Shown: positions 886 to 25,635 of the stretch, piece by piece
Position numbering within the stretch: the first letter of the stretch is position 1
Layout: each line of letters starts with the position of its first letter
Origin: a virus
IMG/VR virus record: IMGVR_UViG_3300005253_000166
DNA: 64,000 nucleotides
Reading direction: 5' to 3' (one strand)
The notes under the pieces: model-generated
What the model was told of the DNA's origin: nothing
Databases searched by the model: none
Seen by the model: the letters and a program-made list of their open reading frames with translations, nothing else
Made by a program: the position numbers and the translations under genes

Positions 886-1425
886 ATGGTGATAAAAATG
901 GTTTTTGTTAATGATGATAATAGGGTTAGATGTCCGCAATGTAGGATTATTGCGATTAAGCTTATTTCTGTTACTGACGATGGTAAAGGCAAAAGGGTTT
1001 GTCGTCATTGTAAGAAGAAGATTTTAGGGAAGAAGTTAAAAACCAGGATTGTCAAATTTAAATTACTTAAGGAGGATATAAAAATGGCTATGACAAAACA
1101 ATTAAAGATTAGTGAAATGTCGCTCGACCGTTTGCAAGCCTATGCAGAGAATTATAAGTTGATGGCACCAGGTGGAGTAACTGAAAGTGAGAAACGAGAG
1201 TTCTATATTAGTGAGTTACAAAAGTTGAATGAGGGAAAAGATAATGTGGGTGCTAGTATTGATGCTGGGAAGTATAAAGGTGTTAACTCATGTAAGTGTT
1301 CAGTCTGCGGCGAGGAGAAGGCCGTTAGAGCGGAAGTTTATGCAAAACGCGTTGAGAAGTTCGGCTCTGAAGAGAAGCTGACGGCTGGGTATAAATGCAT
1401 GGAATGCAGGAGGAAGGAGAAATGA
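886..1425 (+). CDS. zinc-ribbon protein; N-terminal CxxC..CxxC plus C-terminal 'KAVR..KFGSEEKL' Cx2C-23-Cx2C module
   Basis: CPQCR..CRHCKK and CKCSVCGEEKAVRAEVYAKRVEKFGSEEKLTAGYKCMECR; paralogous to modules at 6390-6500, 8050-8330, 9830-9950. Confidence 0.55.
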   Translation: MVIKMVFVNDDNRVRCPQCRIIAIKLISVTDDGKGKRVCRHCKKKILGKKLKTRIVKFKLLKEDIKMAMTKQLKISEMSLDRLQAYAENYKLMAPGGVTESEKREFYISELQKLNEGKDNVGASIDAGKYKGVNSCKCSVCGEEKAVRAEVYAKRVEKFGSEEKLTAGYKCMECRRKEK

Positions 1426-2181: not shown

Positions 2182-3213
2182 ATGACGTTTAAGTATGGTT
2201 CGGGTATGGTTGAGATTGATTTTCCTGTGATTAATATGGATAAATGTAAGGTTACAGTTGAAAATATTGGTTGTACCGAGGTTTTCCGGCCAGGAACGAG
2301 TCATAAAGTGTTTCATAATGGTAAGTTAGTTTTTGAAAAGAGTTTTGGTGGTGGGATAAGACAGATACGCAGTGGTTTGCGTTTGGTACAACGTTGTTTT
2401 CTAGGTAAATTTTCTGGAACGTTGAGACAATGGACTAAGAATGGAACTTTTTACAAGGAAGAATTCACATATGATTGCAATAGTAAGTCTGCCTATACTA
2501 TAACTAATGGTGAAAAAGAGTTGGATATTTTTTATCCTGATGGTAAAAAATGGTTTACGATGAGGAGTGGACAGTCTGGTAAGATAAGTTTTAATAAGGA
2601 CAAAATTGTTGATGATTATTTGATTGTTGGTAAGAGTAACACAGATTTTGTTGGTAAGAATAATTATGTTACTAGCCATGATAATCATTTTAAGAGTTTT
2701 GATATGGAAGGAAATTTGAGAGAAAAAGGTCAGTATGAGTTTAGACAAAAGGTTGGAGAATGGTTAGAGAGTGGAAGTGAAGCCTTCTATTTACGAGGAG
2801 TTGAAGTTTCTAAACAAGAGTATCATGCTAAGCCAGAGGAATTAGATGTATTAAGCATCTTGAAGAATCCGAATGCACAGAAGAGAGCCGTTTTATTAGA
2901 TAAATTAGGTTCGGAAAATTTAGTTAAAACATTGATGAAGGATAGTTACGGTGCTAAAGTTATTCATAGAGAGGGTGACATGGAGTTGATTTCAATTGAT
3001 TTGTTTAGTAATTCTGGTATGGATAAAAATGATTGGTTAGGAGATTATGAGATTAATTTTTTAAAGGTAGTTTGTCCTTCGACGTTTACAAAGTTTTTTT
3101 TGAGGGTTCCGCCTGATATACACAAATGTGAAATAGCAAGACAATGGACGTTTGGTATTGAAGCTCGTAATAGTATTGAATATAATCCAATCCAATTCAA
3201 AAAGGAAACTTAG
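2182..3213 (+). CDS. hypothetical protein with MORN/YwqK-like repeats (G-x-W-x-F/Y-x-x-G-K)
   Basis: repeated 'NGKLVFEKSF', 'KNGTFYKEEF', 'PDGKKWFTMRSG' units; ATGA overlap with upstream gene. Confidence 0.4.
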   Translation: MTFKYGSGMVEIDFPVINMDKCKVTVENIGCTEVFRPGTSHKVFHNGKLVFEKSFGGGIRQIRSGLRLVQRCFLGKFSGTLRQWTKNGTFYKEEFTYDCNSKSAYTITNGEKELDIFYPDGKKWFTMRSGQSGKISFNKDKIVDDYLIVGKSNTDFVGKNNYVTSHDNHFKSFDMEGNLREKGQYEFRQKVGEWLESGSEAFYLRGVEVSKQEYHAKPEELDVLSILKNPNAQKRAVLLDKLGSENLVKTLMKDSYGAKVIHREGDMELISIDLFSNSGMDKNDWLGDYEINFLKVVCPSTFTKFFLRVPPDIHKCEIARQWTFGIEARNSIEYNPIQFKKET

Positions 3214-3390
3214 AGATGTGTTTACACTTTTATATGGAATACATTGTCTTTTTTTCACTTTTATTTTTGAAAAAATCTATACCATTCCGCTTTTTAAATG
3301 TGATGTGCCGTATGTTTTTTCACTTTTTAAATGTGATATGCTTTAGAACGTTTCACTTTTTTAATATATGATAAGGATGATGGTTAAAAA

Positions 3391-3507
3391 ATGAGTTGTG
3401 TGCAGATTGATGATTTGGATTGTCCTTTTTGTAATCAGATAACTATGGGGCAATTAGATATTAAAAGACGTGAGTATATGTGTTTTAAATGTGGTAAGGT
3501 GGTATGA
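3391..3507 (+). CDS. small zinc-ribbon protein (38 aa)
   Basis: MSCVQIDDLDCPFCNQ...CFKCGKVV; two CxxC pairs. Confidence 0.3.
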   Translation: MSCVQIDDLDCPFCNQITMGQLDIKRREYMCFKCGKVV

Positions 3508-3619
3508 ATGGAATTTGATAAGCTTGGGTTTGAAGAAGAGTTGAATGAGTTGAGTTTGAAGTATCCTAACATAGCAATATTTTTGGGTAGGTTAGAAAGA
3601 GTTATAAGGTGATTGTAGG

Positions 3620-3811
3620 ATGAAAAAGATATATAAAAGGGTGGTTGGTTATACATTGATAGTGATTGGATTTTTGTATAATATTATTCCTCCTTCTATA
3701 TTTATTTGGACTGGGCGATTAATTCATAGGGTATATAGGGTACCTTTTCTAGGCTTGATTATTGTCGTTGCTGGAGTTATTATTTTAATAAGGAGTTTAA
3801 CTAGAAAATGA
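3620..3811 (+). CDS. small membrane protein
   Basis: hydrophobic translation; ATGA coupling to next ORF. Confidence 0.4.
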   Translation: MKKIYKRVVGYTLIVIGFLYNIIPPSIFIWTGRLIHRVYRVPFLGLIIVVAGVIILIRSLTRK

Positions 3812-4101
3812 ATGAAGAAGAAGACGAGGATGAAATAAGTATCAATCCAGATAAGGTTGATGAAGTAATTGAAGACGTATACAATCTATTATACAAGAAG
3901 AAAAAGACTAAAAATGAAGAAGCAAGATTGTGGATATTGTGTATGGTTGCTTTTGAGATGAAATCCAGAGAGATTAAGAAACTTTACAAGTATGTTTCTA
4001 ATAGGATTGCTAATAAAAATATTAAGACTGAAGAACAATTGGAGAAGGATGTAAATGCTATTTTGGATAGGACAATTATAATTACTAAGTCGTTGAGGTG
4101 A
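3808..4101 (+). CDS. hypothetical acidic protein
   Basis: ORF, translational coupling. Confidence 0.4.
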   Translation: MNEEEDEDEISINPDKVDEVIEDVYNLLYKKKKTKNEEARLWILCMVAFEMKSREIKKLYKYVSNRIANKNIKTEEQLEKDVNAILDRTIIITKSLR

Positions 4102-4266
4102 TTCAAAAATGAGAGTTAATGTTAGTGGGGGGATTTCGAGGAAGGAGATGTTGTTAGCATTGCAGAAAGCAGAGCTTACGATGAGGGATGAGGATTTGTA
4201 TACGGGTGACGATAAGATTGATAAGTTGACAAAGAGTAAAATGGCTTTAATGCTAGCGGGTGGGAA

Positions 4267-4482
4267 ATGAATAAGGAAGAATTTGCTCAAATTTTCGAGA
4301 AGACTGTTTTTATAGAGCATTTGACTAAGAAACAGCAAGAAGAGTTTTATGAGGTAGTTAAAGGACTAGTTTTAAAAAGGAAAGTGAGAAAGGTTTTAGA
4401 ACAATATCACAGGTTTATAACGTGGAGAGGTTTAACTGAAGATGATTATAATAAGATGTTAAAGGGATTGGAGTTGAGATGA
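4267..4482 (+). CDS. hypothetical protein
   Basis: ORF, ATGA overlaps both sides. Confidence 0.4.
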   Translation: MNKEEFAQIFEKTVFIEHLTKKQQEEFYEVVKGLVLKRKVRKVLEQYHRFITWRGLTEDDYNKMLKGLELR

Positions 4483-4913
4483 AACATAAGTTTGAGATTG
4501 ATGATACTGTTAGAGTTATACATTCTAGGAAAGGTGGAACTATTATTAGGCGATTTTACGATGTAGATAGTACTCCAGTGTATGCCGTGAGATATATTGG
4601 GGTAAATACTAGGTTTGAGTTGTTTGTTAACAAGTTTACGCCGTTTAAAATCAACGTGACGACACTTCTTCCTAAATTCGAGAAGATGAATTGGAGGTAC
4701 GATAAAATGATACAATGTCCGGTATGTAATGGAGAAATGGAGCATTGGGGTAAACATGCTGCTTGGAATACTGTGAGAAATACTAAGACTAAAACATTTA
4801 CGTGTGGAGGTTGCGGACTGAGAATGGTTTTTAAGAAGAATAATTATAAGCATAGAAGATTTATTGAGGCGAATTATGATGGAGAAAGAAAAGTGAATAT
4901 TGGAGGTAATTAA
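4479..4913 (+). CDS. zinc-binding protein (CPVCNGE...CGGCG); contains left copy of 54-bp inverted repeat
   Basis: ORF; CxxC pairs. Confidence 0.45.
   Translation: MKHKFEIDDTVRVIHSRKGGTIIRRFYDVDSTPVYAVRYIGVNTRFELFVNKFTPFKINVTTLLPKFEKMNWRYDKMIQCPVCNGEMEHWGKHAAWNTVRNTKTKTFTCGGCGLRMVFKKNNYKHRRFIEANYDGERKVNIGGN
4623..4676. repeat. 54-bp perfect inverted repeat, left arm
   Basis: reverse complement of 5559-5612 exactly. Confidence 0.9.
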
Positions 4914-4914
4914 A

Positions 4915-5337
4915 ATGAAATTAGAAGTAGTTATGAAAGTATTGATGGGAGGAAAGGAGTTTAAAGGAAAAGGTTCATTAATTTTATTTGGTAATAGAAA
5001 CAGAATATATTATAGGGATTGGGATTTGGACCAGAGAAGGGAAGATGCTATAAAACTAAATCAGAGACCAGATATATTGGCTGATGGATGGTGGAAAGAA
5101 AATTGGGAATTATTTGAGGAAGAAAAGAAACAGACTTTGAGTGACAAATGGATTAGAGCAAATGAAGATGAGGTATGCGGTGATATGAATAAATTTTATT
5201 TAAGAGATGTCAAACAATTCATTAAAGACATTAAAGAAGATATTAAGAAATTAGGAGTAGAATCTTCAATAGAACAAGAATTTAATAGAGAACTATTTGA
5301 AGTAATAGATAAAAGAGCAGGAAAGAGATTGATATAA
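4915..5337 (+). CDS. hypothetical protein (inside IR-flanked segment)
   Basis: SD ggaggt upstream of ATG at 4915. Confidence 0.45.
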   Translation: MKLEVVMKVLMGGKEFKGKGSLILFGNRNRIYYRDWDLDQRREDAIKLNQRPDILADGWWKENWELFEEEKKQTLSDKWIRANEDEVCGDMNKFYLRDVKQFIKDIKEDIKKLGVESSIEQEFNRELFEVIDKRAGKRLI

Positions 5338-5426
5338 AATGTCAACGTATTATTTGTTAGAGAAAAGAGTAGTTACTTGTAGTAAAAATTTGAAAGAGAA
5401 GTATGAGGAGAAAGGTTTCAAATTGA

Positions 5427-5774
5427 TTGCTGTTGATTCTGGATGGAATAATAGTCTTCAATTACGATAAAATGACTTCTGGTAGTGACCAATATGAGGA
5501 AAGTCGATGTGAGTATTGGGGAACTACGCTTTATTCTTGTCGGTGTCCGGGTTATAATTTTAGGAAGAAGTGTCGTCACGTTGATTTTAAACGGCGTAAA
5601 CTTGTTAACAAAGATGCTAATCATACTGACGAATATGACAAGATTTTAGCCTCTATCGTTTCGGGAATAGAAGCTACAACGTTTGTTGAGCAAAATTCTG
5701 AAGAACTACTTAATAAAATGAAGGTAATAGGCGATGTATTCGAGCGTCACGGAAAATTATATAAACTTGAATGA
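5427..5774 (+). CDS. hypothetical Cys-rich protein; contains right copy of 54-bp inverted repeat
   Basis: ORF. Confidence 0.4.
   Translation: MLLILDGIIVFNYDKMTSGSDQYEESRCEYWGTTLYSCRCPGYNFRKKCRHVDFKRRKLVNKDANHTDEYDKILASIVSGIEATTFVEQNSEELLNKMKVIGDVFERHGKLYKLE
5559..5612. repeat. 54-bp perfect inverted repeat, right arm
   Basis: reverse complement of 4623-4676 exactly. Confidence 0.9.
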
Positions 5775-5816
5775 AGATGATGTACCTAAAGGTCCATCAA
5801 AACTAGATGGATTAGA

Positions 5817-6521
5817 ATGAAGTTAAAAAAGAAAGAAGCACAGGAAAAATTGAAAGAGCTGTTTCATAAAGAAATGGAATGGTTAAGAGATGAGTACAAT
5901 AGAGTTTGTCCTGAGGAACACTGGGCTTTTCTGTTTACAAATACGGAATTACGTGTTATGGATGCAGACACTTTTTACAACGCTAAAAATACTGTGTCTC
6001 TAGTGCATGGTAAGAGTTACAAAGAGATAGAGATTTGGGAAGACCATAACTCTGATACTCGTAGCCGTGAATCACCTTCTGCTGTCTTTAAGATTAATCA
6101 GATGAACGAAGTTATAGCCAAGATTATTGAGTTGATGAAGATTCAACCTAAACTTCCTATTTATCGTAGGTATAAGGCTGATAATATACTTCCTTTAATA
6201 TCTGATTTATCGGGTGGAAAGCTTAAAAATATATTGGAAGATAGCGAAAAAGGTCGAATTAATATGGCTTTGTGGAAAGATATTCAGAGTGTAAAGAAGG
6301 GTGAGTTGAAGTGCTCGTTTTATAGTCTGGCTAAGAAATATAAGGTGTCGACAGCTACTGTGGTGGCGTATAATAAGCGCTCTGTTGAATGCCAAAAATG
6401 TAAGGAGATTAAGGTCTTTGATGCGAAATTATACAAGGAAATGCTCGAGAAATACGGTTCCAAGTCAAATTTTAACAAGGGTTTTATATGTAAAAAGTGT
6501 AACATTAACGTGTTAATGTAA
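5817..6521 (+). CDS. hypothetical protein with C-terminal zinc-ribbon module of the 'KFGS' family
   Basis: C-term ECQKCKEIKVFDAKLYKEMLEKYGSKSNFNKGFICKKCN aligns with modules in 886, 7988, 9763 ORFs. Confidence 0.5.
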   Translation: MKLKKKEAQEKLKELFHKEMEWLRDEYNRVCPEEHWAFLFTNTELRVMDADTFYNAKNTVSLVHGKSYKEIEIWEDHNSDTRSRESPSAVFKINQMNEVIAKIIELMKIQPKLPIYRRYKADNILPLISDLSGGKLKNILEDSEKGRINMALWKDIQSVKKGELKCSFYSLAKKYKVSTATVVAYNKRSVECQKCKEIKVFDAKLYKEMLEKYGSKSNFNKGFICKKCNINVLM

Positions 6522-6947
6522 CGTTTGGCGTTTTTGAAAGTTCAAAAATTTCGGAGTCAAAAGAACTGTCTTGGTGAGTTCGTGTTTATAAATTTTTCGT
6601 AAAGTTTAAATAAGATGAACTCAAAGATATATATTAAAAGAGCACAACGTACGTTGTTTAAATACGAAATTTTATATTAACATATAACTATGTTAATGTA
6701 AATACATATATATTTTTTTAGTTACGTTGGAATGTTGAAGGCTAATATATATATTAAAAGCTATAAAAGGTGTTGGAGGCATTGAATATGGATAAACAAA
6801 ATTATCATTATAGACTTAGCGATGAACAAATTGAAGAAATACTTAAGAAATTGGATAAAGAATTATTTCGACAGAAAGTAATTGGACGTGATAAATTACG
6901 TTACAAAAATATTTATTTTAAATGAAAATCGAGTCTAAATTGCACAA

Positions 6948-6989
6948 CAATATTTAAATAGATGAACGCATTTAGATATATTAGAGATA
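6948..6989 (+). promoter_or_regulatory. repeated upstream element R (TTTAAATA core), copy 1
   Basis: 'atatttaaatagatgaacgcatttagatatattagagata' ~95% identical to 7929-7970; precedes gene start. Confidence 0.5.
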
Positions 6990-7012
6990 AATATTATGTG
7001 AGGTGTGTAAAG

Positions 7013-7891
7013 ATGGCGGATGGCAAGACTTTTATTTTAGGGTGTGTTGTTGGTGGCACAGTAGTATCTTTAGGGAAGTGGTTATTTGCCTATTGGAGAG
7101 AGTCGGGAAAAACTTCTACAGGGATAATTATGAAAGTCATGGAAAAATATTTTGAATATCCGAGACAGGACGGTGACGAAGAATTTGATGATGATAGTGA
7201 TTGTGGTGATGAAAAGGTTCGGTATATGTTAGATGAGGAATATAATATTGTTATCAGTGTTAAGGAGATTGAAGATGCTTTAAAAGAGGAAGATTTGACT
7301 CCTTGTAAAGTTTGTAAATTTATTCAAAATTATGTTTTGGGTAGGAAAACTATTGTAATTATGAAAATCATGGAAAAGGATTTGGATTATACAAGGAGGG
7401 GTGATGGTGGTGATGGCGATTATGGAAAGGCTTGGTATATGTTAGATGAGGAATATAATATTACTGTCACGGCTTGTACAATTGAAGATGTGTTAAGAGA
7501 AGAGGAATTGACTCCTTTTAAAGTTGATAAATTTATTCGGAATTATATTAAGCGTATGGAAACCTTTAGACGCGGTGAAGCATTAGAATTGAAAAAGTCT
7601 AAATTATACCAAAAGGATGAGAAGTTAGTAGTAGAGCAAGAAGCGGAGCGACGAGTTTATGGCGAGGTAAAAAGTAAGAGAGCTCCTTTAACGCCTGAAG
7701 AACGGAAGACTGTCCATGATAAATATCACAATGAATGTGCCGTATGTAGTGGTACAGTAGGATTAGAAATACATCATAGAGATGATGATGCGACAAATAA
7801 TAGACTAGGCAATTTAATCTTATTATGTGTTGATTGTCACAAAGAAACGCGCAAAAAAAGCAAGACAAATACTCGGAAGAAGAAGAAGTAG
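7013..7891 (+). CDS. HNH endonuclease-domain protein with two internal ~60-aa tandem repeats
   Basis: C-term CAVCSG..LEIHHRDDDATNNRLGNLILLCVDCH (HNH); repeats 'YMLDEEYNI..EE.LTP.KV.KFI.NY' x2; track ORF starts 6962 inside repeat, internal ATG 7013 has SD gaggtg. Confidence 0.55.
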   Translation: MADGKTFILGCVVGGTVVSLGKWLFAYWRESGKTSTGIIMKVMEKYFEYPRQDGDEEFDDDSDCGDEKVRYMLDEEYNIVISVKEIEDALKEEDLTPCKVCKFIQNYVLGRKTIVIMKIMEKDLDYTRRGDGGDGDYGKAWYMLDEEYNITVTACTIEDVLREEELTPFKVDKFIRNYIKRMETFRRGEALELKKSKLYQKDEKLVVEQEAERRVYGEVKSKRAPLTPEERKTVHDKYHNECAVCSGTVGLEIHHRDDDATNNRLGNLILLCVDCHKETRKKSKTNTRKKKK

Positions 7892-7987: not shown

Positions 7988-8389
7988 ATGCCGGATAAAA
8001 GTAAAAAAGGTGGTGCTTTAATTTCTAAGGTTAAAGGACAGACTTCTATTCAGTGTTCTAAGTGCAGAGATATTAAGGCAGTGAGACGAGAGGTCTTTTT
8101 AAAGCGCATTGAGAAATTCGGTTCTGTCGGAAAATTGATTGCTAACTATAAGTGCCAAAAATGTCGCAATGGTGCTAAGAACGGTATTCAATGTGTTCAG
8201 TGTAAAGAGATAAAAGCAGTTAGAAGAGACGTGTATAAAAAAAGGATAGAGTGGTATGGAAGTGAAGAAAAACTAGTTGCAAAGTATTTATGTAGGAAGT
8301 GCCGAAGAATTGCCAAGCATGAAAAGAAAATGCAAGCTATGCACTCTCGCAAAGCTTATATGAAGTTGTCTAATAATGAAGGCAAGTAA
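7988..8389 (+). CDS. tandem double zinc-ribbon protein ('KAVR..KFGS..KL..Y.C..CR' module x2)
   Basis: IQCSKCRDIKAVRREVFLKRIEKFGSVGKLIANYKCQKCR and IQCVQCKEIKAVRRDVYKKRIEWYGSEEKLVAKYLCRKCR. Confidence 0.55.
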   Translation: MPDKSKKGGALISKVKGQTSIQCSKCRDIKAVRREVFLKRIEKFGSVGKLIANYKCQKCRNGAKNGIQCVQCKEIKAVRRDVYKKRIEWYGSEEKLVAKYLCRKCRRIAKHEKKMQAMHSRKAYMKLSNNEGK

Positions 8390-9309: not shown

Positions 9310-9645
9310 ATGTTTCAAGTAGTTTTTGAGTGGTGGTTGAGTTTAAAAGAGGAAGAACGATTTGAGATAATTGAAAATGCCTTTTGCAATAACAAGGAAT
9401 TGAAAATGCCTTTTGCAATAACAAGGGAATGTAAGTGTTGTAGGGATTTGTTGTGGCACTGTAAGAAGTGTTGGGATAAATTTCATAATGGTAGGTTACA
9501 TAAGGATTATGAACCACCTAAACATTATGGACAAAGTATGTTTGATGGTGAATTTACTAAGAAAATGAAAGAATTTGGAATAATATTTATACCTAAGATT
9601 AAAGAAGACAAGAAAAGAGATTATAAAGAAGGTGAGTATCATTAA
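9310..9645 (+). CDS. Cys-rich protein (CKCCRDLLWHCKKCWDKFH); start uncertain because of 29-bp tandem duplication at 9371-9429
   Basis: ORF; second repeat copy carries an in-frame ATG at ~9406. Confidence 0.35.
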   Translation: MFQVVFEWWLSLKEEERFEIIENAFCNNKELKMPFAITRECKCCRDLLWHCKKCWDKFHNGRLHKDYEPPKHYGQSMFDGEFTKKMKEFGIIFIPKIKEDKKRDYKEGEYH

Positions 9646-9762
9646 ATGACGCTTACAAATCACAACATTTAAATACTTGAATGCTTTTGGATTATCATAT
9701 GATGTGAGATTTTCCTTCAGGAAAATTTCAACGTGTATATCAACGAACCGAGGTGGTCGTAT

Positions 9763-9990
9763 ATGGCAAAAAAAGGTAAGGCTGAAGAAAAAGCCGAGAA
9801 AAAAGAGAAAGGACCAAGTAAGTCCAAGATAACTTGCACTAAGTGTGAGGAAGTGAAAGCTGTTAGACCTGAAGTCTTCGACAAAAGAGTTGAGAAATTT
9901 GGCTCTGAGGAGAAGTTAAGGGCAGGATATCTTTGCCAGAAATGCCGTCCTAAAAAGGAAAAAGCAAAGAAGGAAGGAAAAGAGGAGTAA
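9763..9990 (+). CDS. small zinc-ribbon protein of the 'KAVR..KFGSEEKL' family
   Basis: ITCTKCEEVKAVRPEVFDKRVEKFGSEEKLRAGYLCQKCR; SD gaggtgg upstream of ATG 9763. Confidence 0.5.
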   Translation: MAKKGKAEEKAEKKEKGPSKSKITCTKCEEVKAVRPEVFDKRVEKFGSEEKLRAGYLCQKCRPKKEKAKKEGKEE

Positions 9991-10396: not shown

Positions 10397-10441
10397 AGAA
10401 AATGAAAGGAAAAATAACTAATTGGTCAAAATCAGACTTAA
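10397..10441. repeat. 45-bp perfect direct repeat, copy 1 (agaaaatgaaaggaaaaataactaattggtcaaaatcagacttaa)
   Basis: identical to 14535-14579. Confidence 0.9.
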
Positions 10442-11652
10442 GTAAGAAACCAAAGGTAGATTAAATCGAGGAGGTTAGAATGATTTTTAAATTAGAACAA
10501 CAAGTAGAAGGAGATAATGCAAGATTTACTATAGATATGACTGGATATGAATTACATATTATCAAACAGAGTAAAGAAGCAAGGAATCACTTTTTTGAGA
10601 ATATTGCACAAGAATTAAAACTTACTTAATTACAATTCAGTATGCAACTATGCCAAATCGTCTATGGGTAAGACACCTTTATTGAACTCGGAAGGAACGC
10701 TGAGGGTGAGGAGAAATGGGGTTCGAATCCCCTAATGGCTTAAAATAATTGTAGTAGAAAATGGGATGTATATATTGTGGAGAACATGGATGTGATGATT
10801 GTATGGATATTACTATAGCTTGGAAGATATACAGGAACATATCCTCACCACCACATATTAAGATGAAAAAGAGAAAAGGAATTGTAACACCAAATTATAT
10901 TAGACAAGGAGGTTAAGATGGAAAAAGGAAGAAAGTTATTGAAATTGTTTAGAAAAGAGCAACTGAAAAGGGATAATGTTGGTTGTATGTGTGGTGATTG
11001 TACGGAAGATATGGATAATGCACTAAATAATTATATTCAAGGGAAATGTAAGTAATGCAAAAGGTTAGAACTTGTTCTAATCACCTTATACCAAGAGGAT
11101 TAGACCTGTTGTTTAACAACTAACCTTGCAAAATTACTTACACTTTACTATGAAAACAAGGAGATTATGAAAATGGAAGAAGGATTAACATTTAAGGAAT
11201 TGAAACCATTGATGGTGATGATTGGGAATATGAGCAAAAATGAATCTATGCCTCATTGCTTTGGAGATGAAAAACAATTTAAAGATATAACAACATTATG
11301 GGAAAGATATAAGGAATGGGAAAAAGCTTCGTAGAAGCAACCCACTATGTAGAAAATGGCAAAAGTAAAGTTTCAATGCAATCATTGTGGAATATCTACC
11401 TATTGGTATAGGTCAGCAATCCATGAGCTTTCATATCAGAAAATAGATGATAAAATCTACTGTGATGATTGTATCAATAAGATAGGTCATAAAGCAGTAG
11501 ATTCGGATTAACCATTATAATGGTAAATGAGAAACGGATGCTATAACGTATTGAGGCAATGGCTCAGGGCAAAGTAGGCAAACCTTAGAAAACGGTGAGG
11601 TCGGTACTCACCCTTCCGCTCATTATTATCATCAGAGGTGTAGGTGATGAAT

Positions 11653-11964
11653 ATGAAGAAAATAATGGGTTTGATTTTAGTTGGATTAATTGTATTAGTA
11701 GGTTGTCAAAATCGTAGTGCTGAGATATGTTCATTTGTAGAAGCTTCAAAAACAGATAAGAATACAACTACTAGAATGGAAGGCGTAGTATGTGTTATTG
11801 AAGATAAAGATTATGAAACTGTTTTGGTTTTAAAATGTTCTAGTTTTTTGGGGTTTACAGAGATTAATCTTGTGTTAAAATATAATAATGAAACCAACCT
11901 TACTTCAATTAATGAAATTAAGAATAAGTGTGATATAATTGGAGAGGAGAGAGTTACGTCTTAG
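11653..11964 (+). CDS. putative lipoprotein
   Basis: MKKIMGLILVGLIVLVGC signal/lipobox. Confidence 0.5.
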   Translation: MKKIMGLILVGLIVLVGCQNRSAEICSFVEASKTDKNTTTRMEGVVCVIEDKDYETVLVLKCSSFLGFTEINLVLKYNNETNLTSINEIKNKCDIIGEERVTS

Positions 11965-14534: not shown

Positions 14535-14579
14535 AGAAAATGAAAGGAAAAATAACTAATTGGTCAAAATCAGACTTAA
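14535..14579. repeat. 45-bp perfect direct repeat, copy 2
   Basis: identical to 10397-10441. Confidence 0.9.
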
Positions 14580-14691
14580 TCATAGAGATTAATCTAAGAA
14601 TGGAAGCTTTAGATACTTCAGAAGAAGAATTTTCAAATAGAGAATTATTAAGTGATTTTGAAGGATTACTTAAATTCCAAAAGAACAAGAG

Positions 14692-14934
14692 GTGATAAGA
14701 TTGACTTGTAGGGCAGACAAATATCCAGAAAAGGATTTTAAAGGCAATATATTCAAAACACACTGTTACAGATGTGGAAGGGAAATGTCAATTGTTAAGG
14801 GACAGATTAAATATAATACTGAATGGAAGGATGAGTGGATTCCAGATATACAATACTGGACATATCTTGCGTTAGGAAGTAAGGATAAGATAAAAGTGGA
14901 AGTAGAACCACCAAAAGTATCAAGTAGTTGTTAG
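14692..14934 (+). CDS. hypothetical protein
   Basis: ORF. Confidence 0.3.
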   Translation: MIRLTCRADKYPEKDFKGNIFKTHCYRCGREMSIVKGQIKYNTEWKDEWIPDIQYWTYLALGSKDKIKVEVEPPKVSSSC

Positions 14935-15793: not shown

Positions 15794-15947
15794 AATGACA
15801 ACAATAAAAATAAGTGAAGAAGCAGAAAAGAGAATTAGGGAGAGGAGTAAGAGAGTAGAGAAGGCACATAATGACTTCAAAAGAGCTTGTGGTTAAACTT
15901 ACACAATAGAGGAACAAGATGAACAATGCAACCATAGAGGTATTTAA

Positions 15948-16277
15948 ATGATATTACTTGGATATTTAGCTTTAAGGTTTAGAAAAATAATATGTAAATA
16001 CATACCTAAATTAGCCATATGGATTTATTCAAAACATAGAGGAGAATGTAATGGTTGTGGTGATTGTTGTAAAACTATAAACTGGAATTGTGAGCATTTA
16101 ATAAATAACAAATGTAATATTTATGAAAAAAGACCTTTGAACTGCACGACAGCACCCTTTCCTTTTGATTTATGGTTTAATGAGAAATTTAAAAACTGTA
16201 GCATTTATTATTTTCAAAAGAGAAGAAGTAAAGAAGTAGAGAAGGCACATAATGATTTTGAAAAAGCTTGTGGTTAA
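15948..16277 (+). CDS. CxxCxxCC putative Zn/Fe-chelating domain protein (YkgJ-like), paralog A
   Basis: GECNGCGDCCKT motif; 70% identical to 17930-18232 product; upstream 35 nt also duplicated. Confidence 0.5.
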   Translation: MILLGYLALRFRKIICKYIPKLAIWIYSKHRGECNGCGDCCKTINWNCEHLINNKCNIYEKRPLNCTTAPFPFDLWFNEKFKNCSIYYFQKRRSKEVEKAHNDFEKACG

Positions 16278-17747: not shown

Positions 17748-17929
17748 CACTTCCAACAAATTGGGTATGGTGGGGATTAGGTTGGTTATTCCTACCAAGA
17801 ATGACTATTGGAATACTTATAGGGATTTTCACTAATCAGGCTACACTAGGATTAGTCTTAGCAATAATAGGTGCTATAATAGATTTATGTAGCGATTAAT
17901 TACAGCTATGCAACCATAGAGGTATTTAA

Positions 17930-18232
17930 ATGATATTACTAGGATATTTAGCTTTAAGGTTTAGAAAGGCATTATGTAAATACCTGCCTAAATTAGCTAT
18001 GTGGATTTATTCAAAACATAAAGGAGAATGTGATAACTGTTGTGATTGTGGTAACTGCTGTAAAACTACAGACTGGTCTTGTAGTGATTTAATAAATAAT
18101 AAATGTAGTATTTATGATAAAAGACCACTTAGCTGTAAAGTGGCACCATTCCCTTTTGATTTATGGTTTAATAAGAAGTTTAAGAACTGTAGCATTTATT
18201 ATTTTAAAAAGAAAAACTTATGCAAATCGTGA
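17930..18232 (+). CDS. CxxCxxCC putative Zn/Fe-chelating domain protein (YkgJ-like), paralog B
   Basis: GECDNCCDCGNCCKT; paralog of 15948-16277. Confidence 0.5.
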   Translation: MILLGYLALRFRKALCKYLPKLAMWIYSKHKGECDNCCDCGNCCKTTDWSCSDLINNKCSIYDKRPLSCKVAPFPFDLWFNKKFKNCSIYYFKKKNLCKS

Positions 18233-18240
18233 GAATCAAT

Positions 18241-19314
18241 TTAGGTTTTGTCTTTGCCTATGAGTTTTTCTTCGTAGTTGGATATTGTTGTTGTTGAAAC
18301 TCCCATTAATCTTGCTAACCTAGATTTATTAGCCGTGGGGTATTTTTCTTTCATTAATCTGTATTGAACTATTTTATCCTTTGTTTCAGGATTGGTAAAT
18401 TGTAGGAGAATGGTTTGAATAAAGTCAAATGCTTGTTCAAAATATGAAGAATCATCAATCTGGATTTCCTTGAGTTTCTTTGTTTCTTTATATATATTGT
18501 TGGTTTTTAAATAATTATATATACCGTATCTAGTTATTTCAGATGATGTTCTTGCTATAAACCCATAATCGAGAGTATCAGATGGCCATAATTCATTGTC
18601 GTCTATGTATTCGTCATATTTAGTTTGATAGTCGCTGAATACTTTTGTTGGTATTATTACATTATCGATTTGTCTGGAGCAATCTTGTATATTAATATCT
18701 AATTCACCTCGTAATCCAGATTTGATATACTCTTTAGTTGGTTGTATGAATAAAGGTGAAAACCTACTTAGTAAAGCTTTACCTTTCTGAGAATTATCGT
18801 AGTTGGGATATTCCATAGCATAAGCAATACAACTAAAAATTGCTTTGATTCGTATTAAATTATCTTTGACTTCGTAATCTACGAAACCATGTCTATCTCT
18901 AAATCTATATGGTGATTTAACTTTAAAACCTAGTGACCTCGAGCTTTCTTGGTTTTCAAGAAGCGATAACATAGAATTTTGGCCGAAAGTTCCTACTGAA
19001 TTCCATTCATCAATTACAAATATTTTTCCACCTACATTGATTAATATCGAAGGGACGTACTCCCCATCTTTACTTATCGAACCTTCTATACTTGGTTTTG
19101 TAAAGTCGTCGTTGACAAATATATCATCTAATGCTATTTTACGTAATTGTTGGGTAATAGCAGATTTAAAGGTTCCGAATGGTGAAACGATTAGTAAGTG
19201 GTTTTGAGGGCGTAATCGGAACGGTCTCTTTTTTTGCTCGATTATAACGTTTTTTATCTTGCGCATCGAGAAGCAAGTTGATATTGCTGTGTCCAGATAG
19301 TCAATATTCGTCAT
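18241..19314 (-). CDS. MCM-like AAA+ ATPase (minimal helicase core) with C-terminal winged-helix
   Basis: Walker A-like SPFGTFKS, Walker B IFVIDEWN, MCM-type arginine-finger context ALLSRFSPLFI (cf. LLSRFDLIF), C-terminal HTH ANKSRLARLMGVSTTTISNYEE; only substantial minus-strand gene; first ATG at 19314 (track starts at upstream TTG 19335). Confidence 0.5.
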   Translation of the reverse strand: MTNIDYLDTAISTCFSMRKIKNVIIEQKKRPFRLRPQNHLLIVSPFGTFKSAITQQLRKIALDDIFVNDDFTKPSIEGSISKDGEYVPSILINVGGKIFVIDEWNSVGTFGQNSMLSLLENQESSRSLGFKVKSPYRFRDRHGFVDYEVKDNLIRIKAIFSCIAYAMEYPNYDNSQKGKALLSRFSPLFIQPTKEYIKSGLRGELDINIQDCSRQIDNVIIPTKVFSDYQTKYDEYIDDNELWPSDTLDYGFIARTSSEITRYGIYNYLKTNNIYKETKKLKEIQIDDSSYFEQAFDFIQTILLQFTNPETKDKIVQYRLMKEKYPTANKSRLARLMGVSTTTISNYEEKLIGKDKT

Positions 19315-19330
19315 GTGTGTACCTCTAAAC

Positions 19331-19570
19331 GACAAACTCTCCGAGTTTGTTTTTATCTCCCAAAGGAGATAACTATAGAAGAAAATGATACATTATTTAA
19401 CAATTTATTCAAATTTATAAACTTTTCGTTGACCTTGGTATCCATGGTAAACAAGGTCAACATAAACTTTATAAACTTGAACGTTTTTGTTATAGTTAAC
19501 GCGATGTGTAAAGCGTTAAAAAAGCCTAAAACACTACAGGCGAGTGTTTATCTCCTTTAGGAGATAATTC
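19331..19570. promoter_or_regulatory. origin-like / divergent promoter region: palindromes TATCTCC-N4-GGAGATA x2 (19353-19370, 19549-19566) symmetrically flanking an AT-rich core, with GTTGACCTTG-N14-CAAGGTCAAC (19428-19461) bracketed by direct repeats TTTATAAACTT (19414-19424, 19468-19478)
   Basis: read directly from sequence; located between the minus-strand MCM-like gene and plus-strand genes. Confidence 0.5.
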
Positions 19571-22600: not shown

Positions 22601-23881
22601 ATGAAAATTAGTGAAGCTTATGTTTTTGGACGATGGCTTGGCGATGGTACCAAAGAGTCTTCTAGTTTAGAAATAGCTCGTTCTGAGTCGCGTATTGATG
22701 AAATGGAGACGATTGCTAATATGATACATAAACCTTTTTGTCATACTAACTCTAGTTGTACTAGGTTTCAAGATGCTTACAAGTTAAAAAAAGAATTTTA
22801 TAGGATATACTCAATTATTATCAATCAAGATGTTAAATTACTATTTAATATAAAAGAGTCTTTTGCTATTATTGCAGGGTTCTTAGAATCGGATGGGAGT
22901 ATTGATAATCATTCCAAAAACAAAATTAAAATAGTTTTGCATAATAATGATAAGAATCTTTTATATTTCCTACAGAATTTATTAAAGAATGCAGGTATTA
23001 TTTGCTATATTAAGGAGTCTTATGGTTTAAAAACTAATTACGGTCGAGACAAATGTTGTAGACTGCACATTAATAATAATCTTTGCTTATATTACTTATT
23101 TCATATGCTATTGCCTTATTTATTATCTAAAGATAAGAAGAATCGTATTAATGATTGGTTAAAATTCTATGATGATTATCATCAAAGTTTAAAATTGAAT
23201 TTTTCGGAAAAGTTTATTAGTATCGAAGGTGAAGGTCGTGACATGGGAAGATTAAAGCTTTTTTTGAGGGTACGTGGCTGTCCATTTTCGTGTGGCTATT
23301 GTGATACCAAATATTCGATTGGTTCTAGAGGTATGTCTAATTATAAAGCTCCTACTTTAAGGCAGATAATTAATGATGTAAGAAATTTTGGGTATTTCAG
23401 TGAAATAGAATTTACAGGAGGCTCACCAGAGTGGTTTCCTCAAAAAATAGGGTATTTATTAGTTTATTTCAAAATACATTTTAACAGTAGGATAACAATG
23501 CAATGTAGTGGTGGTATATATAGTGAAAAAAACCAAGCGTTATTTACTTTATCGGATATTAATAGTTTTGATTGTAAAGACCTACGGGAAAAAGTACCTT
23601 TTATTATCGATAAGCTTTATGTAAGAGAAAAAGATGAAATCAAGTTTTTGGTTTGCGATGATTTATCTTATCAGTTCGTAAAGAATAAGCTTAAGGAATT
23701 TAAAGATTTGAAATGCCAATTTATAATTTCTGTCGTTACTGAAGAAAATAAAGATGATTTGGAAAGTTTGAATTTGCTTATCGATAAAATAAAGCATGAT
23801 AATGATTTTCCCAAGCAAAATGTTAGATTAATGGTTCGTGAGCATATTTTATTATATGGAAAAGGTAAACGAGGGATATAA
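22601..23881 (+). CDS. queE: LAGLIDADG homing-endonuclease domain fused N-terminally to 7-carboxy-7-deazaguanine synthase QueE (radical SAM)
   Basis: two LAGLIDADG-type motifs 'FGRWLGDGT' and 'IAGFLESDGSI' in residues 1-190; QueE begins 'FISIEGEGRDMGRLKLFLRVRGCPFSCGYCDTKYS' (Cx3Cx2C); stop codons immediately upstream exclude an intein. Confidence 0.75.
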   Translation: MKISEAYVFGRWLGDGTKESSSLEIARSESRIDEMETIANMIHKPFCHTNSSCTRFQDAYKLKKEFYRIYSIIINQDVKLLFNIKESFAIIAGFLESDGSIDNHSKNKIKIVLHNNDKNLLYFLQNLLKNAGIICYIKESYGLKTNYGRDKCCRLHINNNLCLYYLFHMLLPYLLSKDKKNRINDWLKFYDDYHQSLKLNFSEKFISIEGEGRDMGRLKLFLRVRGCPFSCGYCDTKYSIGSRGMSNYKAPTLRQIINDVRNFGYFSEIEFTGGSPEWFPQKIGYLLVYFKIHFNSRITMQCSGGIYSEKNQALFTLSDINSFDCKDLREKVPFIIDKLYVREKDEIKFLVCDDLSYQFVKNKLKEFKDLKCQFIISVVTEENKDDLESLNLLIDKIKHDNDFPKQNVRLMVREHILLYGKGKRGI

Positions 23882-24109
23882 ATGATAAAACTTCCTAAAA
23901 GAATTCGAATCATAGAAGCAAGTGATATACGTTTGACTGAGAAGCGAGACCAAATCTATATTGAAAAAGAATCTGATTTTCTTTGGTATTTAAAGAGGTA
24001 TAACATCGAAGCAATTCTCAAACTCAAAAAACTTTATTATGTTTTTGAGGATACTGATACTATCATGATATATGACGATAGTAAGGCGTCGCCAGAGGTA
24101 CCACAATGA
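23882..24109 (+). CDS. hypothetical protein
   Basis: ATGA coupling both sides. Confidence 0.35.
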   Translation: MIKLPKRIRIIEASDIRLTEKRDQIYIEKESDFLWYLKRYNIEAILKLKKLYYVFEDTDTIMIYDDSKASPEVPQ

Positions 24110-24768
24110 AAAAAGAAAAGGCAGTATTAATTTTGTCAGGAGGGGTTGATTCGACTACTCTACTATACAATTTATTAGACCAAGATTACGAAGTTTATGC
24201 TGTTAGTTTTGATTACGGTCAGAAACACGCTAAAGAATTATTATGTGCAGCTGAAATATGTAGGAAGCTTAGTGTAAACCATAAGATTCTAAATTTATCG
24301 GTGTTGAATGATGTCGCTCCTAGTGCATTGACGCGAAAAGATATAGAAGTTCCAGAAGGTCATTACAAAGAAGAGTCTATGAAAGCAACAATTGTCCCTA
24401 ATCGTAATATGGTGATGCTTTCTTTAGCAACAGCTTATGCTATTAGTATCAAAGCAACAAAATTGTTTTATGGGGCGCATATTGGAGACCATGAAATTTA
24501 TCCGGATTGCAGGAAAGAATTTATTTATGCTATGAAGCAAGCTATTAAGCTATGTGATTGGCATCAAGTTGAATTAAAAGCTCCATTCAGACATCTAACC
24601 AAGGTGAGTGTTGTAAATCTTGGTAAAACGTTAAATGTTGATTATTCACTTACATATTCGTGTTATAAAGGGAGTGAGAAGGCTTGTGGCAAGTGTGGGA
24701 CTTGTGTTGAACGTCTCGAAGCATTTAAGATAGCTGGAGTAAAAGACCCTATTGAATATGAAAAATAA
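24106..24768 (+). CDS. queC: 7-cyano-7-deazaguanine synthase QueC
   Basis: PP-loop 'LILSGGVDSTT', C-terminal zinc site 'CGKCGTCVERLEAF'. Confidence 0.85.
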   Translation: MKKEKAVLILSGGVDSTTLLYNLLDQDYEVYAVSFDYGQKHAKELLCAAEICRKLSVNHKILNLSVLNDVAPSALTRKDIEVPEGHYKEESMKATIVPNRNMVMLSLATAYAISIKATKLFYGAHIGDHEIYPDCRKEFIYAMKQAIKLCDWHQVELKAPFRHLTKVSVVNLGKTLNVDYSLTYSCYKGSEKACGKCGTCVERLEAFKIAGVKDPIEYEK

Positions 24769-25108
24769 GAAAATAGCGATTGGTATAATAATACTTATGG
24801 GATTAACTTTACTAACAATATTTATTTACGATTACAACATAACTTACGGTGATTACAATGAATTGGTACTTGAATACAATTCCTTATTGAATGATTATAA
24901 CGAGTCATTAAATGCACCATGCAAAGGATGTGAGATGTGTGGTGCTGATATCAAATTTGGTGTAACTGGAATTTATCGGGCCAATGACTATTATTGTGTT
25001 TATGTTGAGAATAGAACAGAGGCTGAGATTAACAGAACAGAGATTCATGAACCGTGTCATCATTTTGTATATATGGACTATGAACACTTCTGCCTAGGCA
25101 AAGCCTAG
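24752..25108 (+). CDS. membrane-anchored Cys/His-containing protein
   Basis: N-terminal TM, CKGCEMCG..HEPCHH. Confidence 0.4.
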   Translation: MNMKNKKIAIGIIILMGLTLLTIFIYDYNITYGDYNELVLEYNSLLNDYNESLNAPCKGCEMCGADIKFGVTGIYRANDYYCVYVENRTEAEINRTEIHEPCHHFVYMDYEHFCLGKA

Positions 25109-25143
25109 GTATCTGGCCTTCTGTCTAGGAGAGCGTAATAAAA

Positions 25144-25635
25144 ATGTCAAATAAAAAGATTATAACGTGGAAACAGTTTCGAGAGCTTGTAGTACAACTC
25201 GAAAAGAAGATTGAATGGAATTCAAATATTAATGATATTTATGGGATTCCGAGAGGTGGGCAATATGTCGCTTTAATGCTTAGCGAAATTTCAGGAATCC
25301 CTTTAACTGACCATATTGATTCGAGGACATTTGTAGTTGACGATATTGCTGATTCTGGGAGTACTCTAGCCAGATTCCATGGAAAGGGGTGTGGAGTTGC
25401 TACTCTCCACGTTAAACCTCGTTCCATGGTTAAACCCCATTACTGGGTTGAGGAAACAGAGGATTATATTATTTATCCATATGAAGCTGCTGCAAATGAA
25501 GATGTTGAAGATAATATTCGTCGTATTTTACAGTTTTTAGGAGTTTATAAAGTGACTGATGGACAATTACTTTCGTTAAAACATAGTGTTCTTAAATTTG
25601 TTAGAGATTGGGGTGTTATAAATGGTAAAGTATAA
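25144..25635 (+). CDS. type I phosphoribosyltransferase-domain protein
   Basis: PRPP-binding motif 'VVDDIADSGSTL'; C-terminal tail 'EDNIRRILQFLGV' duplicates the FolE N-terminus at amino-acid level. Confidence 0.6.
   Translation: MSNKKIITWKQFRELVVQLEKKIEWNSNINDIYGIPRGGQYVALMLSEISGIPLTDHIDSRTFVVDDIADSGSTLARFHGKGCGVATLHVKPRSMVKPHYWVEETEDYIIYPYEAAANEDVEDNIRRILQFLGVYKVTDGQLLSLKHSVLKFVRDWGVINGKV

What the first reader, a model, noticed from the sequence alone, without database searches (positions are those of the whole stretch)
4623..5612. Perfect 54-bp inverted repeats embedded in two different ORFs, flanking an 880-bp segment
TTTGTTAACAAGTTTACGCCGTTTAAAATCAACGTGACGACACTTCTTCCTAAA (4623-4676) is exactly reverse-complementary to 5559-5612. 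The left arm encodes FVNKFTPFKINVTTLLPK inside ORF 4479. The right arm is read on the opposite strand, as KKCRHVDFKRRKLVNK, inside ORF 5427. A perfect inverted repeat of this length in an AT-rich genome implies very recent duplication or ongoing homogenisation. The geometry would allow recombination-driven inversion of the enclosed segment (gene 4915-5337), swapping the C- and N-terminal portions of the flanking ORFs. That is a shufflon-like arrangement without an obvious recombinase. It could also be a MITE-like insertion.
Basis: seen in the sequence. Interest (0 to 1): 0.55.

Follow-up and report, generated by a model that had tools for sequence, protein, structure and literature searches.

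The report
Recent inverted 53-bp self-copy insertion
The perfect 54-bp inverted repeat is real, but it is a very recent, still-polymorphic insertion of a reversed 53-bp copy of a nearby zinc-finger gene in an uncultivated sediment virus, fusing two small genes, and not a programmed DNA-inversion switch.

Summary
Positions 4623-4676 and 5559-5612 are 54 nt long, 100% complementary and 882 nt apart, with no such match expected by chance.

The window is a virus-like contig from the Loki's Castle LCGC14 sediment metagenome. The right arm is native: it encodes the conserved R/C/H core of a SWIM zinc finger in gene 5472-5774. The left arm is the copy. Its GC skew is reversed relative to its surroundings.

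An otherwise 100% identical contig from run SRR1555748 (L002) lacks exactly 53 nt of the left arm. In that "empty" allele, gene A (57 aa) ends at a TAA stop one base before the ATG of gene B, a 68-aa zinc-ribbon gene. The 53-nt insert shifts the frame and fuses A and B into the 144-aa ORF 4479-4913.

Break points of the k=31 Logan contigs show that both alleles co-occur in SRR1555744 and SRR1555748. The filled junction also appears in a contig from a different BioSample.

I found no recombinase among ORFs of 150 aa or more. Every assembly has the same orientation. There are no further copies, terminal repeats or clear target-site duplication.

Best reading: a recent templated inverted insertion from a polymerase template switch or break repair. 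It is not a shufflon or a MITE. Rare inversion and an amplification artefact cannot be excluded without reads.

The parts
4623..4676 (+). Left arm. This is the derived, polymorphic inverted copy. 53 of its 54 nt are absent from the empty allele; the extra matching base is a T shared with the target site.
   Evidence: L002 lacks these 53 nt and is otherwise 100% identical. Its GC skew is -0.26 against a local median of +0.41, which puts it in the lowest 1.2% of 54-nt windows.
5559..5612 (+). Right arm. This is the native template: codons 30-47 (FRKKCRHVDFKRRKLVNK) of the SWIM-type zinc-finger gene.
   Evidence: It is identical in all five contigs compared, including the empty allele. It contains the invariant C34 and H36 and the nearly invariant R31 of a 17-member family alignment. 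9 of those 17 members match Pfam SWIM PF04434.
4479..4913 (+). 144-aa fusion ORF of the filled allele (GenBank KKN44333.1, LCGC14_0694350). It consists of gene A residues 1-48, 18 arm-encoded residues, a 10-residue linker and gene B.
4479..4705 (+). Span of gene A. In the empty allele this is a 57-aa gene (MKHK...FREDELEVR*) that ends at TAA 4703-4705. In the filled allele the stop is out of frame.
   Evidence: L002 gene call 5341-5514 and its translation. It matches PHROG families whose profiles are 61-68 positions long.
4707..4913 (+). Gene B, a 68-aa zinc-ribbon protein with its own GGAGG ribosome-binding site and ATG. It is called as a separate gene only in the empty allele.
4915..5337 (+). 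Gene C, 140 aa, no family match. It lies between the arms.
5339..5470 (+). Gene D, 43 aa. It lies between the arms.
5472..5774 (+). Gene E, a 100-aa SWIM-type zinc-finger protein (KKN44330.1) that holds the right arm. The CxC half (C23, C25) lies inside the enclosed segment and the CxH half (C34, H36) lies inside the arm.

Best explanation
The left arm is a very recent insertion of 53 nt copied, in reverse-complement orientation, from codons 30-47 of the SWIM zinc-finger gene about 0.9 kb downstream. It landed between the last codons of a 57-aa gene (A) and the start of a 68-aa zinc-ribbon gene (B). Because 53 is not a multiple of three, it takes the TAA stop of A out of frame and fuses A and B into one 144-aa ORF. 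Alleles with and without the insert coexist in the same viral population. The most likely origin (inferred, not shown) is a double polymerase template switch during replication or break repair: the growing strand left its template at 4622/4623, copied 53 nt from the opposite strand at 5611 down to 5559, and returned to exactly the next base of the original template. The inverted repeat is therefore a by-product of mutation, not a recombination site. Its expected consequences, also inferred, are an A-B fusion protein, a 54-bp duplex in any transcript that spans both arms, and a substrate for occasional homologous inversion.
For: Shown:
(1) L002 (the SRR1555748 assembly) is 100% identical to the window over 4,625 nt on one side and 6,254 nt on the other, and lacks exactly 53 nt at the left arm. 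Deleting 4624-4676 in silico reproduces L002 exactly.
(2) The empty allele has a clean gene layout: A is 57 aa and stops at TAA, one base lies between, then the ATG of B preceded by GGAGG. The PHROG families that A matches have profiles of 61-68 positions.
(3) The right arm encodes the invariant C34/H36 and nearly invariant R31 of a SWIM family and is present in every contig.
(4) The left arm's GC skew (-0.26) is in the lowest 1.2% of local 54-nt windows, as expected for sequence copied from the other strand.
(5) The filled allele is in the GenBank LAZR01 contig, in JGI 3300005663, in the SRR1555743 and SRR1555744 assemblies, and in a 666-nt contig from another BioSample, SAMN10402039.
(6) Logan contigs end at 4625 (L013, L014), run 4677-5588 (L005) and start at 5583 (L006, L007). 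These are the break points expected in a k=31 graph that contains both alleles and the repeat, so both alleles are present in SRR1555744 and SRR1555748.
(7) No Pfam recombinase, integrase or transposase family matched any ORF of 150 aa or more.
Against: The net junction microhomology is only 1 nt (a T). That is less than expected for classical microhomology-mediated template switching, and the template lies about 0.9 kb away rather than within about 100 bp. Capture of a short DNA fragment at a break would fit the junctions equally well. No orthologous A/B locus was found in a more distant relative, so polarity rests on gene structure, skew and SWIM conservation rather than on an outgroup. No reads were available, so allele frequencies and rare inverted isomers were not measured. 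I could not establish from the material held here whether any of the libraries had been whole-genome amplified.
Confidence: 0.78

Rival explanations
1. The region is an invertible, shufflon-like segment. Recombination between the two arms flips 4677-5558 and swaps the ends of the flanking ORFs to make alternative proteins.
For: The geometry allows it, and 54 bp of perfect identity is enough for homologous recombination. In the predicted inverted isomer both chimeric frames stay open: A' plus a 46-aa antisense tail, and an antisense head of at least 59 aa read into the SWIM C-terminus. The empirical chances of open runs that long are 0.13 and 0.08.
Against: No recombinase matched among ORFs of 150 aa or more. 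All four filled assemblies that span the segment (the window, L001, L003, L004) have one orientation. An allele with a single arm exists. Inversion would separate the invariant CxC from CxH in the SWIM finger and place genes B, C and D antisense. Antisense ORFs of 98-149 aa are common in this G-rich coding strand, and the test of open frames was made after seeing the result.
Confidence: 0.05
2. The filled allele is a laboratory or assembly artefact, such as a polymerase double template switch early in whole-genome amplification of low-input sediment DNA, or a misassembly.
For: From my own knowledge, unverified here: part of the Loki's Castle data was generated from amplified DNA, and displacement amplification is known to produce inverted chimeras. 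The two alleles differ by nothing else over 10.9 kb.
Against: The same junction was assembled from three separate runs with k=127, which exceeds the 54-nt arm, and also appears in the GenBank and JGI assemblies. It is the consensus in most of them. It also occurs in a contig from a different BioSample and assembly. Amplification chimeras are usually single junctions that do not return to the next base of the original template.
Confidence: 0.07
3. The filled state is ancestral, and L002 carries a precise 53-nt deletion.
For: Only one assembly shows the empty allele. No outgroup is available.
Against: A deletion would have to remove exactly the stretch that is complementary to the SWIM gene and, by doing so, restore a canonical stop/RBS/ATG junction. 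The left arm has wrong-strand composition. There is no direct repeat at its borders to mediate a deletion.
Confidence: 0.03
4. Whatever its origin, the copy is kept because it works in cis as an antisense element. In a polycistronic transcript the arms form a 54-bp duplex that controls processing or translation of the SWIM gene and of genes B to D.
For: The minimum-free-energy and centroid folds of 4610-5625 both pair the two arms completely. The filled allele is the assembled consensus in most data sets.
Against: There is no conservation to test. The relatives of the SWIM gene that were found have different upstream genes. Perfect identity and an identical background indicate too little time for selection to be visible. 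There are no transcription data.
Confidence: 0.06
5. It is a MITE-like or other mobile-element insertion.
For: It is a short insertion that is polymorphic for presence or absence.
Against: Only two copies exist in 64 kb, and one of them is constrained coding sequence. The 54-mer has no exact match in the viral or metagenome contig collections, and its 34-nt core has none in the genome contigs. The insert has no terminal inverted repeats. At most an ambiguous TT could be read as a target-site duplication.
Confidence: 0.01

Closest known systems
Templated inverted insertions from polymerase template switching (MMBIR-type 'MMB-TI' events and short-range template-switch mutations; PMC8421209, PMC7954356, PMC11724301)
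   Same: A short insertion that is the reverse complement of a nearby template, added without loss of target sequence, creating a perfect inverted repeat. [quoted passage not shown]
   Different: The template is 882-935 nt away, whereas those surveys searched within about 100 bp. The net junction microhomology is 1 nt, whereas the described signature has microhomology at both junctions. The setting is an uncultivated virus of a prokaryote rather than yeast or human cells.
Quasipalindrome-associated template-switch mutations in bacteria and phage T4 (own knowledge: Ripley 1982; work from the Lovett laboratory)
   Same: The event is strand-switch copying that makes inverted repeats perfect, and it occurs in prokaryotic and phage replication.
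   Different: Those events correct pre-existing imperfect palindromes over a few bases. Here 53 nt were added at a site with no pre-existing complementarity.
Site-specific invertible segments (the R64 shufflon with Rci; the Gin, Cin and Hin systems of Mu, P1 and Salmonella; own knowledge)
   Same: Inverted repeats lie inside coding sequence and flank a segment of about 1 kb, so inversion would exchange ORF ends.
Inverted chimeras of multiple displacement amplification (own knowledge: Lasken and Stockwell 2007)
   Same: An inverted junction to a nearby sequence with little microhomology.
   Different: Here there are two junctions with an exact return to the original template. The event was recovered from several runs and from a second BioSample, and it is the consensus allele.

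Membership tests
Shufflon / site-specific DNA invertase system | A tyrosine (Rci-type) or serine (Hin/Gin-type) recombinase encoded with the segment | tested here: not met
   Pfam scans of the neighbouring genes and of every ORF of 150 aa or more in the window found no integrase, resolvase, invertase or transposase family. About 6 kb of the 70-kb source contig lies outside the window and was not seen.
Shufflon / site-specific DNA invertase system | Both orientations of the segment present in the population | tested here: inconclusive
   The four filled contigs that span the segment all have the same orientation. A minority isomer cannot be seen without reads. Graphs with k=31 cannot distinguish the isomers because the arms are 54 nt long.
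Shufflon / site-specific DNA invertase system | Both repeat copies are a stable, conserved part of the locus | tested here: not met
   L002 lacks the left arm on a 100% identical background.
Shufflon / site-specific DNA invertase system | Inversion exchanges alternative functional gene ends | tested here: not met
   The predicted isomer splits the invariant CxC from CxH in the SWIM finger and joins both flanking genes to antisense sequence.
MITE / small non-autonomous transposon | Terminal inverted repeats, a target-site duplication and multiple dispersed copies | tested here: not met
   There are two copies only, and one is native coding sequence. There are no terminal repeats and no clear duplication at GAGTTGT|TTCGAG. 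The 54-mer has no exact match in the viral or metagenome collections, and its 34-nt core has none in the genome collection.
Template-switch / MMBIR-type templated insertion | The insertion is the reverse complement of a nearby sequence, and the uninserted allele is otherwise intact | tested here: met
Template-switch / MMBIR-type templated insertion | Microhomology at both switch junctions (PMC8421209) | tested here: not met
   The identity is 54 nt and the insert is 53 nt, so one shared T is the only net overlap. The CCTAAA|TTCGAG junction has none.
Template-switch / MMBIR-type templated insertion | The event arose in vivo during replication or repair | not testable with these tools
   This needs library metadata, reads or PCR on native DNA.
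SWIM zinc finger (Pfam PF04434), for the gene that holds the right arm | The CxCxnCxH signature and a profile match | tested here: inconclusive
   C23, C25, C34 and H36 are invariant in 17 homologues, and 9 of the 17 match PF04434, best E-value 3.9e-5. The window protein itself does not reach E = 0.05. UniRef names it a SWIM-type domain-containing protein.

The most novel reading that the evidence does not exclude
The 54-bp inverted repeat may be one product of a systematic process in the early-gene region of this virus. That process would paste short (29-54 nt) perfect copies of the virus's own coding sequence nearby and so redraw ORF boundaries. There are three such perfect copies in the first 15 kb and none in the other 49 kb. 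The 53-nt inverted insert fuses two ORFs, and removing one copy of the 29-nt tandem duplication would likewise split ORF 9310-9645 in two. The resulting inverted repeat might then be used either as a cis-antisense duplex controlling the SWIM gene or as a substrate for inversion that makes chimeric proteins.
Probability: 0.08. Interest if true: 0.5.

Novelty: new member of a known kind. Interest (0 to 1): 0.2.

Why it matters
The value is mainly as a clean natural example. Both the before and after states of a templated inverted insertion were captured in one wild viral population, and the event creates a gene fusion in a single step. It also carries a practical caution: a perfect inverted repeat inside coding sequence need not be an inversion switch, and the 144-aa protein deposited in GenBank (KKN44333.1) is a fusion of two genes. 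It does not open a long-standing question.

Tried and rejected
- Nucleotide search of 3800-6600 against 50,697 phage records found no match.
- Exact search for the 54-mer found nothing in viral contigs or metagenome contigs, and a 34-nt core found nothing in genome contigs. The source contig itself is evidently not in those collections.
- A word-indexed protein search with the 144-aa fusion returned nothing. The same search with the 57-aa gene A returned only itself. No outgroup for the A/B junction was therefore obtained.
- Searches for related loci in viral contigs with the SWIM protein, its neighbour and a five-sequence alignment found no relatives. The 17-sequence alignment was too divergent for the tool.
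- The metagenome scan gave SWIM relatives, but the closest one with upstream sequence (L017) has the SWIM gene directly after the homologue of 4109-4270. Genes A to D are absent there and the insertion site cannot be compared.
- The sigma-70 promoter and terminator scan of 3000-7200 gave counts at or below chance.
- I could not retrieve the original Loki's Castle paper to check which libraries were amplified, or identify BioSample SAMN10402039.
- Considered and rejected without further tests: a diversity-generating retroelement (it would need a direct orientation, adenine-specific mismatches and a reverse transcriptase, and none of these is present) and a virus-borne mini-CRISPR array (there are no flanking repeats around the left arm).

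Full report
**Observation.** The sequence shows TTTGTTAACAAGTTTACGCCGTTTAAAATCAACGTGACGACACTTCTTCCTAAA at 4623-4676 and its exact reverse complement at 5559-5612, with 882 nt between them. Allowing three mismatches, these are the only two copies in the 64-kb window. No match occurred in 100 dinucleotide-preserving shuffles. It is the only perfect inverted repeat of 28 nt or more in the window.

**Context.** The window is AT-rich (about 33% G+C), and nearly all sizeable ORFs lie on the + strand. GC skew is very strong, +0.4 to +0.46 in the first 8 kb. The window encodes:
- a family B DNA polymerase, plus a weak, below-threshold match to a primase small subunit;
- QueC, GTP cyclohydrolase I and a radical-SAM enzyme, the last two with LAGLIDADG domains;
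- an HNH endonuclease;
- very large proteins rich in laminin-G/lectin domains.

This is a virus-like genome. Exact protein look-ups place it in the Loki's Castle LCGC14 marine sediment metagenome (PRJNA259156). The 144-aa ORF 4479-4913 is GenBank KKN44333.1 (LCGC14_0694350) and the gene holding the right arm is KKN44330.1. Both are on a 70,324-nt LAZR01 contig.

**The decisive comparison.** The same region was recovered on independent assemblies:
- JGI 3300005663 (L001);
- MEGAHIT assemblies of SRR1555744 (L003), SRR1555743 (L004) and SRR1555748 (L002);
- Logan contigs.

L001, L003 and L004 carry both arms. L002 is 100% identical to the window over 4,625 nt to the left and 6,254 nt to the right, but lacks 53 nt at the left arm. 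It reads ...GAGTTGT|TTCGAG.... Removing 4624-4676 from the window in silico reproduces the L002 sequence exactly. The right arm is identical in all five contigs.

**Which state is derived.** Four lines of evidence say the left arm is the newcomer.
- In the empty allele the locus has a canonical layout. Gene A is 57 aa (MKHK...FREDELEVR) and stops at TAA (window 4703-4705). One base later comes the ATG of gene B (4707), preceded by GGAGG. Gene A matches PHROG families whose profiles are 61-68 positions long, which fits a small stand-alone protein. Gene B is a 68-aa zinc ribbon.
- Because 53 = 3 x 18 - 1, the insert shifts the frame. The TAA is then read as GAT AAA ATG, which produces the 144-aa A-B fusion.
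- The right arm encodes residues 30-47 of a 100-aa protein. An exhaustive HMMER search found 21 relatives of this protein. In a 17-sequence alignment, C23, C25, C34 and H36 are invariant and R31 is nearly so, which is the CxC...CxH signature of a SWIM zinc finger. Nine of the 17 members match Pfam SWIM. The right arm is therefore constrained native coding sequence.
- The left arm has a GC skew of -0.26 in a region whose 54-nt windows have a median of +0.41. Only 1.2% of windows are that low, as expected for a piece copied from the opposite strand.

**Is the polymorphism real?** The filled junction was assembled with k=127, which is longer than the arm, from two separate runs. It is also in the GenBank and JGI assemblies. 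The empty junction was assembled from a third run.

The Logan contigs break exactly where a k=31 graph holding both alleles and the repeat must break:
- L013 (SRR1555748) and L014 (SRR1555744) end at 4625, the last base shared by the two alleles. With only the filled allele they would run to 4652.
- L005 runs from 4677, the first shared base after the insert, to 5588, which is 30 nt into the right arm.
- L006 and L007 start at 5583, which is 30 nt before the end of the right arm.

Both alleles are therefore present in at least SRR1555744 and SRR1555748.

A 666-nt contig from another assembly and BioSample (ERZ23486227, SAMN10402039; L015) is 100% identical to 3976-4641 and runs 19 nt into the left arm. 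The filled allele is therefore not confined to one project. I could not establish what that sample is. I also could not read the original paper to learn which libraries were amplified. An early amplification artefact is therefore unlikely but not excluded.

**Testing the inversion-switch idea.**
- No integrase, resolvase, invertase or transposase family was found in the neighbouring genes or in any ORF of 150 aa or more.
- All four filled assemblies that span the segment show the same orientation.
- One arm is dispensable.
- The predicted inverted isomer would separate the CxC half of the SWIM finger, which lies inside the segment, from the CxH half, which lies in the arm. It would also turn genes B, C and D antisense.
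- Both chimeric frames would stay open, with 46 further codons after the arm on one side and at least 59 before it on the other. The empirical chances of runs that long on this strand are 0.13 and 0.08. No particular length was predicted in advance, however, and antisense ORFs of 98-149 aa are common here. I treat this as weak, post hoc support.
- Low-frequency homologous inversion across 54 bp remains physically possible and cannot be seen without reads.

**Testing the MITE idea.** There are only two copies, and one of them is constrained coding sequence. The insert has no terminal inverted repeats, and the target shows at most an ambiguous TT. The 54-mer occurs nowhere else in the viral or metagenome collections searched, and its 34-nt core occurs nowhere in the genome collection.

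**Mechanism (inferred).** The event is a pure insertion of an inverted copy of sequence 882-935 nt away, with an exact return to the next base of the target. That is the outcome of a double template switch by a polymerase during replication or break repair. [quoted passage not shown] PMC7954356 describes short-range template switches, and PMC11724301 describes inverted templated insertions at breaks.

Two features fit less well. The net junction microhomology is a single T (54 nt of identity against 53 nt inserted). The template is further away than the roughly 100 bp those surveys considered. Capture of a short DNA fragment at a break would fit the junctions equally well. I commit to the template-switch or templated-repair origin, and regard the exact pathway as open.

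**Consequences (inferred).**
- The filled allele encodes an A-B fusion in which A's last nine residues are replaced by 28 others. B may still be made from its own ribosome-binding site.
- Any transcript spanning both arms is predicted to fold them into a complete 54-bp duplex, in both the minimum-free-energy and centroid structures.
- Coexistence of the two alleles, with the filled allele as the consensus in most data sets, suggests the insert is tolerated.
- No conservation is available to test for selection. The closest SWIM relatives with flanking DNA have different upstream genes. In L017 the SWIM gene directly follows the homologue of 4109-4270.

**Verdict.** The inverted repeat is real and non-random. 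It is a recent, polymorphic, templated inverted insertion, not a shufflon-like switch or a mobile element. It is a new instance of a known kind of mutation, of modest interest. Its main value is as a captured before-and-after pair and as a correction to the annotation of a deposited fusion protein.

Noticed in passing
window 9369-9397 and 9398-9426: A perfect 29-nt tandem duplication lies inside ORF 9310-9645. Removing one copy in silico splits the 111-aa ORF into a 31-aa ORF and an overlapping ORF of about 80 aa that starts MPFAITRECKCC. Like the 53-nt insert, this length is one short of a multiple of three and joins two reading frames. The duplication is present wherever L001 and L002 cover it.
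   Followed up: partly
window 10397-10441 and 14535-14579: A perfect 45-nt direct repeat, 4.1 kb apart. The downstream copy is the ribosome-binding site plus the first 13 codons of gene 14539-14694. The upstream copy sits between genes and creates a 20-aa mini-ORF (MKGKITNWSKSDLSKKPKVD). All three perfect short repeats in the window lie in the first 15 kb.
   Followed up: partly
window 10931-11721 (L002 11737): L002 also lacks 791 nt that the window has. It joins ...ATGGAAAAAGGAA directly to ATATGTTCATTTG..., 130 nt before the end of that contig. This is either a second structural polymorphism of the population or a chimeric contig end.
   Followed up: partly
window 1-64000: The GC skew is extreme and declines steadily, from about +0.45 in the first 6 kb to about 0 at 60-64 kb, without changing sign. 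The small-gene region is strongly depleted in C on the coding strand.
   Followed up: no
window 22601-26857: A cluster for 7-deazaguanine (preQ0 or archaeosine-type) synthesis. It holds a radical-SAM enzyme with a LAGLIDADG domain (22601-23881), QueC (24106-24768) and GTP cyclohydrolase I with a LAGLIDADG domain (25622-26857). This suggests intein-carrying genes and modified DNA.
   Followed up: no
window 886-1425, 7988-8389, 9733-9990, 5817-6521: Several otherwise unrelated small ORFs share a recurring motif of about 35 aa with paired cysteines: C..C.E.KAVR.EVF.KR.EKFGSEEKL.A.Y.C..CR. It occurs twice in 7988-8389.
   Followed up: no
window 6962-7891: The HNH endonuclease ORF has an internal direct duplication of about 213-231 nt (7125-7350 against 7356-7563) at 80-83% identity.
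   Followed up: no
L017 1591-2115 (SDBV01160111.1): In a relative with a 60%-identical SWIM gene, that gene directly follows the homologue of window 4109-4270. The five genes at 4267-5470 are absent there, so this early region is mosaic between related viruses.
   Followed up: partly
window 15926-16224 and 17908-18215; 18241-19335 (-): A direct repeat of about 300 nt at 81-89% identity has its second copy ending just upstream of the only large minus-strand ORF, an AAA_5 ATPase of 364 aa.
   Followed up: no
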